This document shows positions 3,649 to 34,961 of a DNA stretch of 64,000 nucleotides, piece after piece. Origin of the DNA: the human T2T-CHM13v2.0 reference genome, Homo sapiens; assembly GCF_009914755.1 (NCBI RefSeq), contig NC_060925.1, one strand, 5' to 3'. A program made the translations under genes and the position numbers. Under the pieces are notes generated by a model that saw only the letters and a list, made by a program, of their open reading frames with translations, searched no databases and was not told the DNA's origin. Each line of letters starts with the position of its first letter. Position 1 is the stretch's first letter.

Positions 3649-4898
3649 GTAAGATGGATCTTTCTGGATTTGCCTTTCTTTCTATCTTGAAACATTGTTT
3701 CATAGCTTATAACTGACATTTATGTTTCTTGCTTCATGGCTTATTGCAGCTTATTGTGTCAAGGAACTGCATGTCAGAGCTGGATGGACAAACCTGAGTC
3801 CTAACATTTGCTGAAGTTAAGACCAAGGATCATAGAATAGTTAAATAATATAATGAAGCACATATGTTCAGAATGAGTGTTCCTGAGAACCCTCAGAGAT
3901 GAGACGGCTTCAAATTGGTCTCATCTCAGCGATGTGGTCTGGAATTTCCAACAGACGTGAGGAAAATATTTATTGAAGAACAACATGATGTCAAGTTTTT
4001 CAGTAAACCCTTGGTTTGATATTTTTTCCTGAATAGAAGTCTTAAAGATTTGGCCTTAAAGACTTCTGCCCAATTAGATCACTCATTCCATGTACATATG
4101 CAGATAGTGGCACACAACGCAGTTTGCTTGCATGAGGTAGGAGTCCATATATCCCTAGGACTGTATTGTAGTTTACAACTATTTTCTCAAATGCTCTCAG
4201 CTTTTAAATGTCCTACGTAATTTGAAATGCTGCTTAATGTTACTTAGCCCAAAGGAAAGTTAATAGTATTTTCCCCCTTTGCTTATACTGTACTTTCGTT
4301 TTTTATGAGGAAAAGCTAGTTGTTGCTAACTACCGCTTTTTTTGTTTATCGGCTCTTTTTTTGTTTTGTTTTGTTTTTTTAGAATTTTCATAAAGAAATT
4401 AAGTGCAGGGAAATAGAAATTAGATTCTTTTTCTTTTCCTTTTAATTTACATGTCTGGACTTTGAGCTAGAAGTCTGGAAATATATCAGTAGCCAGCAAT
4501 GAGTCTTTAATTAAAGTGGACCCACAAAAACGTATTAGCCAATGAATAAGCTCAGAGCAGTGACCTTCCAGGATGCATTTGTTATGAACCTCTCTGCAGC
4601 ATTGAAGTCAATGTGTCAAAAATATAAAAACAATCTAATTTGAGGAACCCATGACTATTGCTGGCTGAGAAAAATGCCATAAGATTAATTTCTGTATGAT
4701 TTCTATAATCTTTTCTAATGTATATGTTTTCTATTCTCAAAGTCATCTTTATTGATAAGAAAGTGAGGTCAGTTTAGAATGAGCTGTGAGCAGCAGATAA
4801 TATTGTTTTTCTGAAGTGCACAGCATTTATAGTCTATCCGTTGTCTTCAGAGCAATTGTTTATTGCTATTTTGCTTCTTGTCCTCATCCTTCCTTAAG

Positions 4899-4922
4899 GT
4901 CACAGGATCCCAACGCAGCAAG
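4899..4922 (+). CDS. RYR2: RYR2 alternative 24-nt exon VTGSQRSK (inserted after E3715)
   Basis: tccttaag|GTCACAGGATCCCAACGCAGCAAG|gtaaaa, phase 0, identical to the known 8-aa RyR2 splice insert. Confidence 0.93.
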
Positions 4923-22274: not shown

Positions 22275-22348
22275 TGTCCTTGACCTAAATGCATTTGAGC
22301 GACAAAACAAAGCTGAAGGTCTTGGGATGGTGACAGAGGAAGGATCAG
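22275..22348 (+). CDS. RYR2: RYR2 exon ~84 (74 nt) [26 protein letters not shown]
   Basis: attatag acceptor, CAG|gtatta donor (phase 1). Confidence 0.98.
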
Positions 22349-24213
22349 GTATTAATGACTTACATTAAAAGGATCACCTGTCTCCCTTCCCTCCCTGAAA
22401 CGAGTCAATTATCAATTACCTTTCAAGTAGAGAGATAAGAAGTTATTTTAAAGTTGATGAAATGCTTACATGACTCATTTCAAAGTTCATAGTTGGACAC
22501 CGGTCACACCCTAAAACCAACCTTCCACGCCGGTCATTAACTCCTTGTGTGCCAGCCCCATTGCCAGCTGCCTTTCCCCTTATTGGGTTTTCAATGAGGA
22601 ATAATGGTTGAATGAAGGATCAAGATCCTTTATTAGAGAATTTTCTGGGAAATCATAAACCACATAGATGAACCTTTCAAGAACATTTGACTTTCTTTGG
22701 CCACTTTAGCAAAGTCGGGCTCTCAGATTCTTTTATTTCCTTAGGATAGTGATCCTTTGAGCTCCTTCAGTCTACTCTCATTCCTATTCCCTCCTCTTCC
22801 CTTCCAGCACAGTGATCCTCAAATCCATACATGTTTGCAAGTCTAGATTGATGAAAGAAATTAGAGACCAGTTATTTCGCTTAAATAATTCTGTGCACAA
22901 AAGCAGAGATACACGTGATCTTAGAATTTTTCTCTCTCTAAATAGATGCTGGTATAAACTAGAAAGTTTAGCATACAATGCATTTAAAGCAGAAATAACC
23001 TTTGCTGCCCTTTCATTTTAGCAGTATTTATTAAGAAAAAAATCTTCAGTAGTTTTTGGTTTGATTTGTTTTTATTCTTTTGTGTTTGATTTTTAAACTA
23101 GTTTTACTCAGGGCCCCGTATGTTTATCTGTTTTTGTTTGTTTTGTGTGGTTTGGATATGTCTTCTTGTCAATTATTAGTTTTGGAACATTGGGTCTTTT
23201 ATTGGACTAATCTTATTTCAAAAAATAATTTTTTCTCCCATCTGCCATTTGTAGTCTATGTTTATTTCTCTGAAATATTTTAGGATTAACTAATTTATCT
23301 ATGTATTTTTTTGTTCTCACAAATAGGAAAAACAACATTTCTTATTGTATTTTAAAGTTTATTATTAATACCCATTCTGACATTGCTACCACTATGTGGC
23401 TCCCGTGTTTATTTTATTTTCTGCTTGACATTTGGATGTACAAGTGCAGTCAACAAAAATAAGTCATATGGTTACTAAACTGAGTTAGCTACCTTCAAGA
23501 ACAATCACTGACACCATTCTATAACTTCTTAGGTTTTCTGGCCTAAGGTTCTGGCCTGAGGTTCAGAAGGCCAGACCTTTGAGAAAAGTCACCAGTGCCA
23601 CTCTAAACCGACTTAGGTTTTCTGGACCCATCTGCAGAACTTGGAGCCACTGCAGATCTCAGGGCCTATCACCTGCCTACCTCCAGCATCTCTCCAAAGT
23701 CCTAAGCAATTTTCAGCTATAAAATTTCTAAAAATGAATGAAGTCTCTGTCCAAAGCCTGACTTCCCTGTCTTGGAATTAGAAATCAATTTCATTTTCCC
23801 CTGTAGTTATTACCTAATGTTCCAGGGGCTCCTACCACAAATCCATAGTCATTCTTAGTCGCTGTTCATATCAGCTCCCAAAAGGAATAGCAGCCACTTA
23901 GGTTATTTTCCTCAGCCTCCTTTCCTTCGTCAGGCGGATATGGGTTGGAATAACATTTTCGAGTCCCAAGTCAGAAAGAACTTTGTGAGAGTGACCATTC
24001 TGATGTGAGAATTCTTTATATCTCTCAAAAGGAGATTGATTTAACTTGTGCATTCTTTTTCAACACATAAGAAAATAATTACTCAAACCGATTAACACGT
24101 TTTGTATTATTTCCTTACAAACAGAAAAACAAAAGCAAAATCTCAACTTTTTTTCTTTTTCCCCATTTCCTTTTCTTTCGACTACTGTAAATGTACTACC
24201 CTCCCTTCCTCAG

Positions 24214-24231
24214 TCATCACTCATGAGCGTG
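24214..24231 (+). CDS. RYR2: Candidate RYR2 18-nt microexon VITHER (paralog of RYR1 ASII)
   Basis: Long pyrimidine tract + cttcctcag|TCATCACTCATGAGCGTG|gtaatt; symmetric phase 1; same position and length as RYR1 VINRQN / RYR3 LIVRER. Confidence 0.8.
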
Positions 24232-25499
24232 GTAATTATTAAAAATGAACTGTCTTTTGTTTATTTGCTCCTTTATTTGTTGTTAGCTTTGTGTACAGAC
24301 TTGATAGTGACAATTTCCGTGCATTCTTTTTTGTTGTAGACTGTTTTAACAAGTAGATTATTTAATTTCCATCATTATGCATCCTGTTATTTTTTACATT
24401 TACACATCTAGCTTTCCTCCTTTTCTTTCTTGTTTCTATGAGGATGTACAGTTATTAGTATGTCAGATATGAAGGGGCAACAAGCATTTCAATTACATTT
24501 TCGGATTGGTTTTGTTGCTTTTCAGTTAAAAACCTTTCTGGTGGGCCCAGCGTCTGCAACTGTTGTGTCAATGAATGATCCTAGAATGTGTGCCCTAGTC
24601 TCCCTGTGGCGTTTCTGTCTTGAACATGCTGTGGCTTTATGGCTGTACTGATTGGTGCACGGGAAATCGGTGACAGATTCAAGGAGGACGTGACAAGCTG
24701 AGTCTCCTCCTCGCCAGTGTGCTCTGCCAGTTGCCTTCCAAGTATTGGGAGGCCTACTGAGTTTTTCCTCTATTCCTTTGAAAATCTGACAGATTACAAA
24801 TCATTTAACATCAAAACTAATTTTTATTTTTGTGACTGAATTCAAAGAGCAGTAGAAACAATAGCAACTATTTGCTCCTCAAACTAATATACTAGCAAAG
24901 ATGCCATTAGTAATTCAAAGTAGTTTCTGAAAGACATTCTATGCAGTGGAAATAAGGGATGAGATTTTAGATAGTACTTAGGACGCCAACAAGGCTTCCA
25001 AGATTAAATTGTGCTTTCTGAATACATGCTATTGCCTTAATCAAGAGACCTATTAGGAGCATATGTAAGGGCCACTCATTAGCTCTATTAATATTACAGT
25101 ATCTTCCAGATTGTTTTAAGAATTCCTATACAGACACTTTTGGCATGTTTAAATATATCTGTTTTGAGATCACTCTTTTGTTTAAGATTCTGTAAAAGTT
25201 AAAAAAGCCTACATACACTCACAGGAGAAGAAAAATCAATCATCCCTCTTGGAAGGGATAGAAAAGGCTGAAAAAGCAACATCTGTTAGTGATGTCACTT
25301 GCTTCAACACTTGAGGCTCAGAGAGCATGGGCTTAGCACTGAGAAAATAATCTGTTGTACCTGAATCTTCTACATCCTTGCCCACTGTTTTTATTAAGCT
25401 AAGTCTCTTCCTAATGACGACAATATGACCATAAATTATATAGCCATGGAAAATGTATAAGCTCAAATGCATGAACTTTTGATACCCGCAACCCTCCAA

Positions 25500-25625: not shown

Positions 25626-25763
25626 TGTTTAATTTACAGATCCCACGAGTGAAGTCACTTCCCTCCCATCTGTTCATATTCTTCAGGGGCTTACTTCATG
25701 TCTACCATTGCCTTAGGTAGCATTTTTTTTTTTTTTTTTTTTTTTGCCCCTTGACTTACTGTT

Positions 25764-26150
<387 letters not shown>

Positions 26151-32118: not shown

Positions 32119-32199
32119 GAGAAAAGGTTCTGCAGGACGATGAGTTCACCTGTGACCTCTTCCGATTCCTGCAACTACTCTGTGAGGGACACAACTCAG
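32119..32199 (+). CDS. RYR2: RYR2 exon ~85 (81 nt) [28 protein letters not shown]; contains Ca2+-site E3848
   Basis: cccacag acceptor, CAG|gtttgt donor; LQLLCEGHN motif conserved in RyR/IP3R (RIH-associated region). Confidence 0.98.
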
Positions 32200-34832: not shown

Positions 34833-34961
34833 GAATCAATTAGTGACTTTTATTGGTATTACTCTGGGAAAGATGTTATTGATGAACAAGGACAACGGAA
34901 TTTCTCCAAAGCTATCCAAGTGGCAAAACAAGTCTTTAACACTCTTACAGAGTATATTCAG
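34833..34961 (+). CDS. RYR2: RYR2 exon ~87 (129 nt) [14 protein letters not shown]...[10 protein letters not shown]; contains Ca2+-site E3922
   Basis: ttcccag acceptor, CAG|gtaaac donor; also visible in ORF 34779..34973. Confidence 0.98.

What the first reader, a model, noticed from the sequence alone, without database searches (positions are those of the whole stretch)
24136..24240. Hidden 18-nt microexon VITHER: RYR2 counterpart of RYR1 ASII
Seen: an AG-free, pyrimidine-rich stretch of ~75 nt ends in cttcctcag|TCATCACTCATGAGCGTG|gtaatt, followed by a U/G-rich tract. With the phase-1 G of exon 84 it reads EEGS-VITHER-GEKV and regenerates the Gly codon. Known (recalled): RYR1 has EDGT-VINRQN-GEKV, where VINRQN is the alternatively spliced 18-nt ASII exon; RYR3 has EEGT-LIVRER-GEKV; canonical RyR2 lacks these six residues. 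Inference: the ancestral microexon is retained in RYR2 and normally skipped in adult heart. It inserts ~22 residues before Ca2+ ligand E3848. Standard aligners and clinical exon panels would miss it.
Basis: partly seen in the sequence, partly recalled or inferred. Interest (0 to 1): 0.8.

Follow-up and report, generated by a model that had tools for sequence, protein, structure and literature searches.

The report
Conserved unannotated 18-base RYR2 microexon
An 18-base optional exon inside the human heart calcium-release channel gene RYR2, missing from the human reference gene models, encodes the same six amino acids found in fish, bird, reptile and macaque versions of the gene, so it is almost certainly a real, ancient, optionally used exon.

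Summary
Window 24214-24231 (T2T chr1:237,174,214-237,174,231) is an 18-nt cassette flanked by ag| and |gtaatt. It lies in frame between RYR2 exons 22275-22348 and 32119-32199 and reads EEGS-VITHER-GEKV.

- **Paralogues:** The same human genome holds 18-nt exons at the same intron and phase in RYR1 (VINRQN, the ASII exon 83) and in RYR3 (LIVRER).
- **Skipped form:** All 13 RyR2 sequences in the PDB (human, mouse, pig) lack the six residues.
- **Conservation:** In two protein searches, the best 120 full-length RyR2 models all carry a six-residue insert here. It is VITHER in 115 of 120 in the first search (birds, lizards, crocodile, coelacanth, gar, teleosts).
- **Primate use:** Two Macaca fascicularis RefSeq models (isoforms X3 and X18) carry VITHER. 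One matches the human exons spliced with the microexon at 99.8% identity without gaps.

The exon is therefore real, over 400 My old and under coding constraint. It is hidden only in the sense that human RefSeq omits it. I could not test whether human tissues use it, or in which ones. Its effect on Ca2+ activation, 22 residues before ligand E3848, is inference. I found no paper describing it. Interest is moderate: a new member of a known kind.

The parts
22275..22348 (+). RYR2 upstream constitutive exon (exon 84 if the 1298-nt exon is counted as exon 90). It ends in phase 1 (...GGA TCA G|gt).
   Evidence: Hub gene table. It encodes [24 protein letters not shown], residues 3802-3825 of the human RyR2 PDB chains.
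24136..24213 (+). AG-free, pyrimidine-rich 3' splice-site region ending in cttcctcag. It contains UCUU and U-runs and no UGC motif.
   Evidence: The AG exclusion zone is 76-78 nt. Pyrimidine content of the last 20 nt is 0.85, which only 2 of 19 annotated exons in the window reach. There is no TGC within 164 nt upstream.
24214..24231 (+). 18-nt cassette microexon TCATCACTCATGAGCGTG. With the phase-1 G of the upstream exon it encodes V-I-T-H-E-R, and its last G restarts the Gly codon.
   Evidence: It is paralogous to the RYR1 and RYR3 18-nt exons (11/18 and 12/18 nt identical). The identical peptide sits at the same junction in RyR2 models of other vertebrates and macaque.
24232..24300 (+). 5' splice site gtaattat followed by a U-rich tract with UGUU/GUGU motifs.
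   Evidence: The 5'ss GTG|GTAATT matches 6 of 9 consensus positions, the same as or better than 10 of 19 annotated exons in the window. The G|GTAATT core is identical to the RYR1 ASII donor.
32119..32199 (+). RYR2 downstream constitutive exon (exon 85), encoding [27 protein letters not shown] with the Ca2+ ligand E3848.
   Evidence: Hub gene table. The EKV...HNS stretch is residues 3827-3852 in human RyR2 chains. The ligand role of E3848 comes from a passage of PMC9394283.

Best explanation
Window 24214-24231 is a genuine, anciently conserved cassette microexon of RYR2. It is the orthologue of the 'VITHER' exon present in RyR2 models of fish, lungfish, coelacanth, reptiles, birds and macaque. 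It is the paralogue of RYR1 exon 83 (ASII) and of the RYR3 18-nt exon.

It is spliced in or out as a unit. Because it begins after a phase-1 G and ends with a G, the Gly codon is rebuilt either way. The two products differ only by six residues inserted between S3825 and G3826.

What is shown:
- the sequence, frame and splice sites;
- paralogy in the same genome;
- skipped mRNAs, in human, mouse and pig cDNA-derived sequences;
- included forms in macaque and non-mammal models;
- identity of the peptide across vertebrates.

What is inferred:
- In mammals the heart mainly skips the exon, and some other tissue or developmental stage includes it.
- Inclusion lengthens a loop just before the helix that carries Ca2+ ligand E3848, and so tunes Ca2+ activation or gating. 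I put this functional part at about 0.4.
- The long AG-free CU-rich acceptor region and the U-rich downstream tract make it a repressible, factor-dependent exon.
For: - **Sequence and frame:**
- **Splice sites:** They are as good as those of constitutive exons in the same gene.
- **Paralogues:** 18-nt exons lie at the homologous intron and phase in RYR1 and RYR3 of the same genome.
- **Partial RyR2 models (read):** 4 teleost partial RyR2 proteins carry VITHER or VISHER at the junction.
- **Full-length models (read):** 120 of the 120 best hits (of 1913 hits) carry a 6-residue insert. It is VITHER in 115, VMTHER in 2, and VINHER, VISHER and VLTHER in 1 each.
- **Primate models (read):** The best 120 include Macaca fascicularis RyR2 isoforms X18 and X3 with EEGS-VITHER-GEKVL. 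X18 aligns to the human window exons spliced with the microexon at 99.8% identity over 1026 residues without a gap.
- **Skipped form:** 13 of 13 PDB RyR2 sequences lack the insert. Three unnamed proteins on contigs too short to hold introns also lack it (P0016, P0034 and P0058).
- **Copy number:** The stretch is single-copy and not a masked repeat (hub table).
Against: - None of the 18 human RefSeq transcripts contains the exon (hub table).
- No human RNA evidence could be examined here.
- Among mammals, only macaque models with the exon were seen. Mammalian partial models lack it (Capra, Ovis and Neotoma).
- The evidence type behind the macaque models (RNA or homology) is unknown to me.
- No GCAUG lies within 300 nt, whereas RYR1 and RYR3 each have one or two downstream. 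No UGC lies near the acceptor, so the exon does not carry the two best-known microexon enhancer signatures.
- The structural placement in a loop rests on a low-confidence model (mean pLDDT 46).
Confidence: 0.85

Rival explanations
1. A vestigial exon in humans. It is functional in non-mammals but effectively never spliced into human RYR2 mRNA, and its sequence survives by chance or by recent loss of use.
For: It is absent from all 18 human RefSeq transcripts (hub table) and from 13 of 13 PDB RyR2 sequences. Goat, sheep and woodrat partial models lack it. No paper mentions it.
Against: All six codons, the ag acceptor, the gt donor and the pyrimidine tract are intact, and the peptide is identical to that of birds and fish. 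Decay would be expected after roughly 300 My without use (my inference from general neutral rates). Two macaque RefSeq isoform models include it. Microexons are commonly missed by aligners and annotation, as the abstract of PMC7821500 states.
Confidence: 0.12
2. The stretch is conserved for a non-coding reason, such as an intronic splicing regulator or other element, and the open frame is incidental.
For: No direct evidence. Its flanks are rich in regulatory-looking CU and U tracts.
Against: What is conserved is the amino-acid sequence at the exact exon-exon junction in annotated proteins of many vertebrates. The RYR1 and RYR3 paralogues share its length, phase and position while their DNA has diverged (9-12 of 18 nt). 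No Rfam family matches there.
Confidence: 0.02
3. A chance ag...gt open 18-mer with no biological meaning.
For: 21 such open cassettes occur in this intron by chance.
Against: Only one of the 21 encodes the orthologous hexapeptide exactly, and it lies in the homologous intron. A six-of-six residue match by chance is of the order of 1e-7 per candidate (my calculation from uniform residue frequencies).
Confidence: 0.01

Closest known systems
RYR1 exon 83 (ASII, residues 3865-3870, VINRQN)
   Same: It is 18 nt long, lies in the same phase-1 position in the homologous intron and starts TCAT. Its donor core G|GTAATT is identical, and the Gly codon is regenerated on skipping. It is a known developmentally regulated cassette (passages of PMC3899969 and PMC5840707).
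   Different: The peptide is VINRQN rather than VITHER (11 of 18 nt identical). In RYR1 the included form is the adult and reference form (21 of 25 PDB RyR1 sequences show the full 7-residue gap), whereas in mammalian RyR2 the skipped form is the reference. RYR1 has UGC at -8 and a GCAUG at +167, and RYR2 has neither.
RYR3 18-nt exon (LIVRER)
   Same: It has the same length, intron position and phase, 12 of 18 nt are identical, and it shares the R-E-R / H-E-R ending. It is also optional: the one PDB RyR3 sequence (9c1e) lacks it.
   Different: The upstream phase-1 base is C, so inclusion gives Leu and skipping turns the junction Gly into Arg (EEGT-R-EKV). The donor is stronger (gtaagt).
VITHER exon in RyR2 models of non-mammalian vertebrates and Macaca fascicularis (RefSeq XP and UniProt models)
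   Same: The hexapeptide is identical at the identical junction. These are the orthologues.
   Different: Those models are annotated, while the human RefSeq models omit the exon (hub table). I saw only proteins, not their DNA or their transcript support.
Known RYR2 cassette exons: exon 4, exon 75 (gg donor; 'islet-type' versus 'cardiac-type' RyR2) and the 24-nt exon at window 4899-4922
   Same: They are small in-frame cassettes of the same gene with tissue-specific use (passages of PMC9033130 and PMC12109991). The 24-nt exon encodes VTGSQRSK and co-occurs with VITHER in macaque isoform X3.
   Different: They lie at different positions in the protein. These exons are described in print or in human RefSeq, and the 18-nt exon is not.
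Neuronal SRRM3/SRRM4-dependent microexons
   Same: The size (27 nt or less), the deep conservation and the in-frame insertion into a surface region of a signalling protein.
   Different: There is no UGC motif between the pyrimidine tract and the acceptor. Neural specificity is untested. ryr genes are absent from the supplementary tables I could search.

Membership tests
RyR ASII-type microexon (homologue of RYR1 exon 83) | An 18-nt exon in the intron between the exons encoding ...AEGLGMV.E.G. and GEKV..DDEF, in phase 1 | tested here: met
   Searches show the same intron, length and phase in RYR1, RYR2 and RYR3 of one genome.
RyR ASII-type microexon (homologue of RYR1 exon 83) | Sequence similarity to the paralogous exons | tested here: met
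   11 of 18 nt are identical to RYR1 and 12 of 18 to RYR3. The peptide pattern is [VL]-I-x-[RH]-[QE]-[NR].
RyR ASII-type microexon (homologue of RYR1 exon 83) | Functional splice signals | tested here: met
   There is an ag acceptor after a tract with 0.85 pyrimidine, and a gt donor matching 6 of 9 consensus positions. Both are within the range of the 19 annotated exons. No MaxEnt score was available.
RyR ASII-type microexon (homologue of RYR1 exon 83) | Both included and skipped mRNAs exist (a true cassette) | tested here: inconclusive
   The skipped form is in 13 of 13 PDB RyR2 sequences, including human. The included form is in the macaque X3 and X18 models and in many non-mammal models. 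Inclusion in human RNA was not testable here.
RyR ASII-type microexon (homologue of RYR1 exon 83) | Developmental or tissue-specific regulation | not testable with these tools
   No RNA-seq data were available, and no paper was found.
SRRM4/SRRM3-dependent neuronal microexon | UGC-containing enhancer close to the 3' splice site | tested here: not met
   The nearest upstream TGC is at -165.
SRRM4/SRRM3-dependent neuronal microexon | Length of 27 nt or less and deep vertebrate conservation | tested here: met
   The exon is 18 nt, and the peptide is identical from teleosts to primates.
SRRM4/SRRM3-dependent neuronal microexon | Neural-specific inclusion dependent on SRRM4 or SRRM3 | not testable with these tools
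   There are no ryr entries in the supplements of PMC12626424, PMC7821500, PMC12868881 or PMC10639058. Supplements of bioRxiv preprints are closed.

The most novel reading that the evidence does not exclude
In humans, the VITHER(+) RyR2 would be the main RyR2 isoform of particular non-cardiac cells (neurons, endocrine or smooth-muscle cells) or of a developmental stage. It would have measurably different Ca2+ activation because the six residues sit in the loop feeding the helix that holds E3848. Variants in or around this exon would go unscreened and unnumbered in current clinical RYR2 testing.
Probability: 0.3. Interest if true: 0.7.

Novelty: new member of a known kind. Interest (0 to 1): 0.45.

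Why it matters
RYR2 is a major arrhythmia (CPVT) gene and is widely expressed in brain and endocrine cells. An optional six-residue insert lies 22 residues from the cytosolic Ca2+ activation site. It is conserved from fish to primates yet absent from the human reference models and from every RyR2 structure sequence I found. This has several consequences.

- Residue numbering, variant annotation and exon-capture designs ignore 18 coding bases and their splice sites.
- All functional and structural work on mammalian RyR2 has used one of two natural forms.
- The parallel with RYR1 ASII and the RYR3 exon implies a regulated switch older than the RyR1/2/3 duplication, and its function has not been worked out in any of the three.

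It is also a concrete case of a microexon missed by human annotation although orthologous models contain it.

Tried and rejected
- **Literature:** Ten full-text searches found no paper describing this exon.
  - 'RYR2'+'microexon' gave 15 papers. I opened three of them and none concerns this exon. The QKI preprint is about RYR2 exon 75 with a gg donor, outside the window. Searches turned up only unrelated mentions. The other 12 I saw only as a listing of titles and abstract openings.
  - 'vither' alone matched only 'flavithermus'.
  - 'vither'+'ryanodine' gave 2 papers whose titles are unrelated; I did not open them.
  - 'RyR2'+'splice variants'+'24-bp'+'30-bp' gave 0 papers.
- **Supplements:** Four microexon papers had no ryr1, ryr2 or ryr3 entries in the supplementary files held. 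Some of those tables may list coordinates only. bioRxiv supplements are closed, and the Irimia 2014 paper is not held, so large microexon catalogues may still contain the exon.
- **Query length:** A 26-aa exon was too short for the search for homologous proteins, so I used a 43-aa exon instead.
- **Structure prediction:** AlphaFold2 on a 488-aa fish RyR2 fragment with a 25-row alignment gave mean pLDDT 46.1 and pTM 0.31. Its placement of VITHER (residues 317-322) in a coil between helices 296-307 and 331-344 is only a weak hint, so I ran no fold search on it.
- **Splicing motifs:** The scan found no GCAUG within 300 nt, no UGC near the acceptor and no QKI motif. I therefore dropped RBFOX-, SRRM4- or QKI-driven inclusion as specific proposals.
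- **Other features:** Rfam found only an Alu-type SRP match elsewhere in the intron. There is no notable ORF on either strand.
- **Mammalian conservation:** I could not test DNA-level conservation in other mammals, because no vertebrate genome other than the window's own is held.
Full report
**Observation**

The window reads cttcctcag|TCATCACTCATGAGCGTG|gtaatt, with the 18 nt at 24214-24231. The upstream RYR2 exon (22275-22348) ends GAA GGA TCA G|gt, and the downstream exon (32119-32199) begins ag|GA GAA AAG GTT. A script that joined the annotated exons gave ...[20 protein letters not shown]... without the 18 nt and ...[26 protein letters not shown]... with it, with no stop and the Gly codon rebuilt in both.

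The nearest upstream AG is at 24134-24135, so the AG-free zone is 76-78 nt. Pyrimidine content is 0.78 over 24136-24211 and 0.85 over the last 20 nt. Only 2 of the 19 annotated exons in the window reach 0.85. The donor GTG|GTAATT matches 6 of 9 consensus positions, and 10 of the 19 annotated exons score 6 or less. The downstream 70 nt are 50% T and 16% G, with UGUU/GUGU motifs.

The region is single-copy in the genome and is not in the hub's repeat list. The VITHER frame closes three codons past the donor, and no other ORF of note overlaps on either strand. Rfam finds nothing at the site; its only hit in the intron is an Alu-type SRP match at 25945-26061.

**Paralogues in the same genome**

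I searched the window's own assembly with the two flanking exons. This found their RYR3 homologues on contig C15 and their RYR1 homologues on C19. I fetched both introns and scanned them for open 18-nt ag...gt/gc cassettes in phase 1.

- RYR1 has 5 candidates, one of which is ag|TCATCAATCGCCAGAACG|gtaatt, encoding VINRQN.
- RYR3 has 7 candidates, one of which is ag|TCATTGTTCGGGAACGTG|gtaagt.
- RYR2 intron 84 has 21 candidates, one of which is the VITHER exon.

Joined translation gives EEGT-LIVRER-GEKV for RYR3. Skipping there gives EEGT-R-EKV, because the phase-1 base is C. Nucleotide identity is 11/18 (RYR2/RYR1), 12/18 (RYR2/RYR3) and 9/18 (RYR1/RYR3).

Passages of PMC3899969 define RyR1 ASII as exon 83, residues 3865-3870. 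They say that ASII(-) is transient after birth and about 10% in adults. A passage of PMC5840707 agrees.

**Which forms exist as cloned or modelled proteins**

I searched the PDB sequence set with each flanking exon. Each search matched 39 distinct RyR sequences.

- **RyR2:** In 13 of 13 sequences (human 4967 aa, mouse 4966 aa, pig 4968 aa, one shortened entry) the two exons are separated by a single residue, the Gly. The insert is absent.
- **RyR3:** The one sequence (9c1e) also shows a one-residue gap.
- **RyR1:** 21 of 25 sequences show a seven-residue gap (six residues plus Gly, positions 3865-3871 in the 5037-aa chains). The other four (6x32-6x35; 3716-3816 residues) show shorter gaps. I take these to be shortened deposited sequences rather than isoforms.

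Human numbering places EKVL...CEGHNS at 3827-3852, so the E of LLCEGHN is E3848. The insertion point (S3825/G3826) lies 22 residues before it. A passage of PMC9394283 names E3848, E3922 and T4931 as the cytosolic Ca2+ site of human RyR2.

**Orthologues**

The exon nearest the junction that was long enough to use as a query (43 aa, 34833-34961) retrieved 239 proteins of 77-2000 aa, of which the best 120 were listed. I read these.

- Among RyR2-type entries that span the junction cleanly, 4 carry the insert. They are all teleosts: Ameca, Oncorhynchus and Lates with VITHER, and Oryzias with VISHER.
- 11 lack the insert. These include goat, sheep, woodrat, quail, a turtle and three fishes.
- Three unnamed proteins also lack it (P0016, P0034 and P0058). 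Their contigs are too short to contain introns, so I infer they derive from mRNA.
- Three further models read through into intron.

I then used a fish protein carrying the insert as query, restricted to 106 residues around the junction and to proteins of 2222-5000 aa. This gave 1913 hits. All of the best 120 carry a six-residue insert: VITHER in 115, VMTHER in 2, and VINHER, VISHER and VLTHER in 1 each. The taxa include chicken (8 isoform models), ducks, geese, passerines, ostrich, lizards, crocodile, coelacanth, gar and many teleosts.

To bring mammals to the top, I used a Nothobranchius protein that shares 'GEKVL' with mammals as the query (2055 hits, best 120 listed). The 14 entries not seen before all carry an insert. 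Among them are lungfish and two Macaca fascicularis models, isoform X18 (4992 aa) and isoform X3 (5023 aa), both with EEGS-VITHER-GEKVL.

The human window exons spliced with the microexon align to X18 at 99.8% identity over 1026 residues without a gap. They align to X3 with one 8-residue gap, which is the 24-nt exon at 4899-4922 encoding VTGSQRSK. No other mammal appeared in the listed 120. The database is clustered at 90% identity, so this is a lower bound.

**Interpretation**

The human 18-mer encodes exactly the hexapeptide that RyR2 of other vertebrates carries at exactly this junction. Its splice signals are intact, and a primate has annotated isoforms that use it. Chance is excluded, because only 1 of the 21 open cassettes in the intron matches, and it matches six residues out of six.

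A long-dead vestige is unlikely. From general neutral rates, I infer that roughly 300 My without selection would have degraded 18 coding bases and their splice sites. The exon must predate the RyR1/2/3 duplication, since all three paralogues keep it in the same place.

It is a true cassette. The skipped form is in mammalian cDNA-derived sequences and in intron-free unnamed contigs of both 'EKVL' and 'EKVM' type. The included form is in many models.

Tissue, developmental stage and inclusion level in humans remain open. The regulatory signature is a long AG-free CU-rich acceptor region and a U-rich downstream tract. There is no GCAUG within 300 nt, no UGC near the acceptor and no QKI motif. RYR1 and RYR3 each have one or two GCAUG within 170 nt downstream. 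That difference may relate to the high inclusion in muscle RyR1, but this is inference.

An AlphaFold2 model of a 488-aa fish fragment puts VITHER in a coil between two helices. Its mean pLDDT is only 46, so this is a hint and nothing more. That the insert tunes Ca2+ activation is plausible from its position, but it is untested.

**Prior knowledge and novelty**

RYR2 cassettes described in print are exon 4 and exon 75, which distinguish islet-type from cardiac-type RyR2; exon 75 has a gg donor (passages of PMC9033130 and PMC12109991; the QKI preprint). Human RefSeq also holds the 24-nt exon at 4899-4922 (hub table).

I found no paper on the 18-nt exon in ten full-text searches. I also found no ryr entries in the supplements of four microexon papers. 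Catalogues I could not open may list it.

The exon is, however, in public protein models of many species, including a primate. I therefore rate it a new member of a known kind: the RyR ASII-type microexon. It is a human annotation gap rather than a new mechanism.

Noticed in passing
window 4899-4922 (+): The 24-nt alternative RYR2 exon listed by the hub encodes VTGSQRSK between ...EVKSFE and EKEMEKQ.... It has a canonical gtaaaa donor and a strong pyrimidine tract. It co-occurs with VITHER in macaque isoform X3. It is not the gg-donor 'exon 75' of the QKI and Takasawa papers, which lies outside the window.
   Followed up: partly
L008:691-708 (RYR3, G000:C15): Skipping the RYR3 18-nt exon changes the junction residue from Gly to Arg (EEGT-R-EKV), because the upstream phase-1 base is C. 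Skipping in RYR1 and RYR2 preserves Gly. The only PDB RyR3 sequence (9c1e) is the skipped form.
   Followed up: partly
L003:1381-1498 (RYR1, upstream of the exon-85 homologue, G000:C19): Three TGCATG motifs lie within about 45 nt, roughly 50-100 nt upstream of the acceptor of the exon that follows ASII in RYR1 (sequence shown). This looks like an RBFOX site cluster. RYR2 has no GCATG within 300 nt of its microexon.
   Followed up: no
window 25945-26061 (-): An Rfam Metazoa_SRP match (71.7 bits, just above the gathering score) lies inside the masked repeat 25714-26066. It is most likely an Alu element in intron 84.
   Followed up: no
PDB entries 6x32-6x35: In four RyR1 entries with shortened deposited sequences, the stretch between the two flanking exons is shorter than in full-length chains. 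This would fit the ASII loop being left out of those sequences, possibly because it is unresolved. I did not check this.
   Followed up: no
P0242, P0243, P0248-P0251, P0254: Some bird and catfish RyR2 isoform models are 5081-5111 aa long, more than 100 residues longer than human RyR2. This implies further optional exons elsewhere in the gene that I did not map onto the human sequence.
   Followed up: no
P0109 and P0091: Both RyR1 forms appear among the database hits. One carries VINRQN (P0091) and a sheep-hybrid model lacks it (P0109, NEDGT-GEKVMADDEF). A bird 'RyR1-like' model (P0092) carries IISREN at the same place.
   Followed up: no
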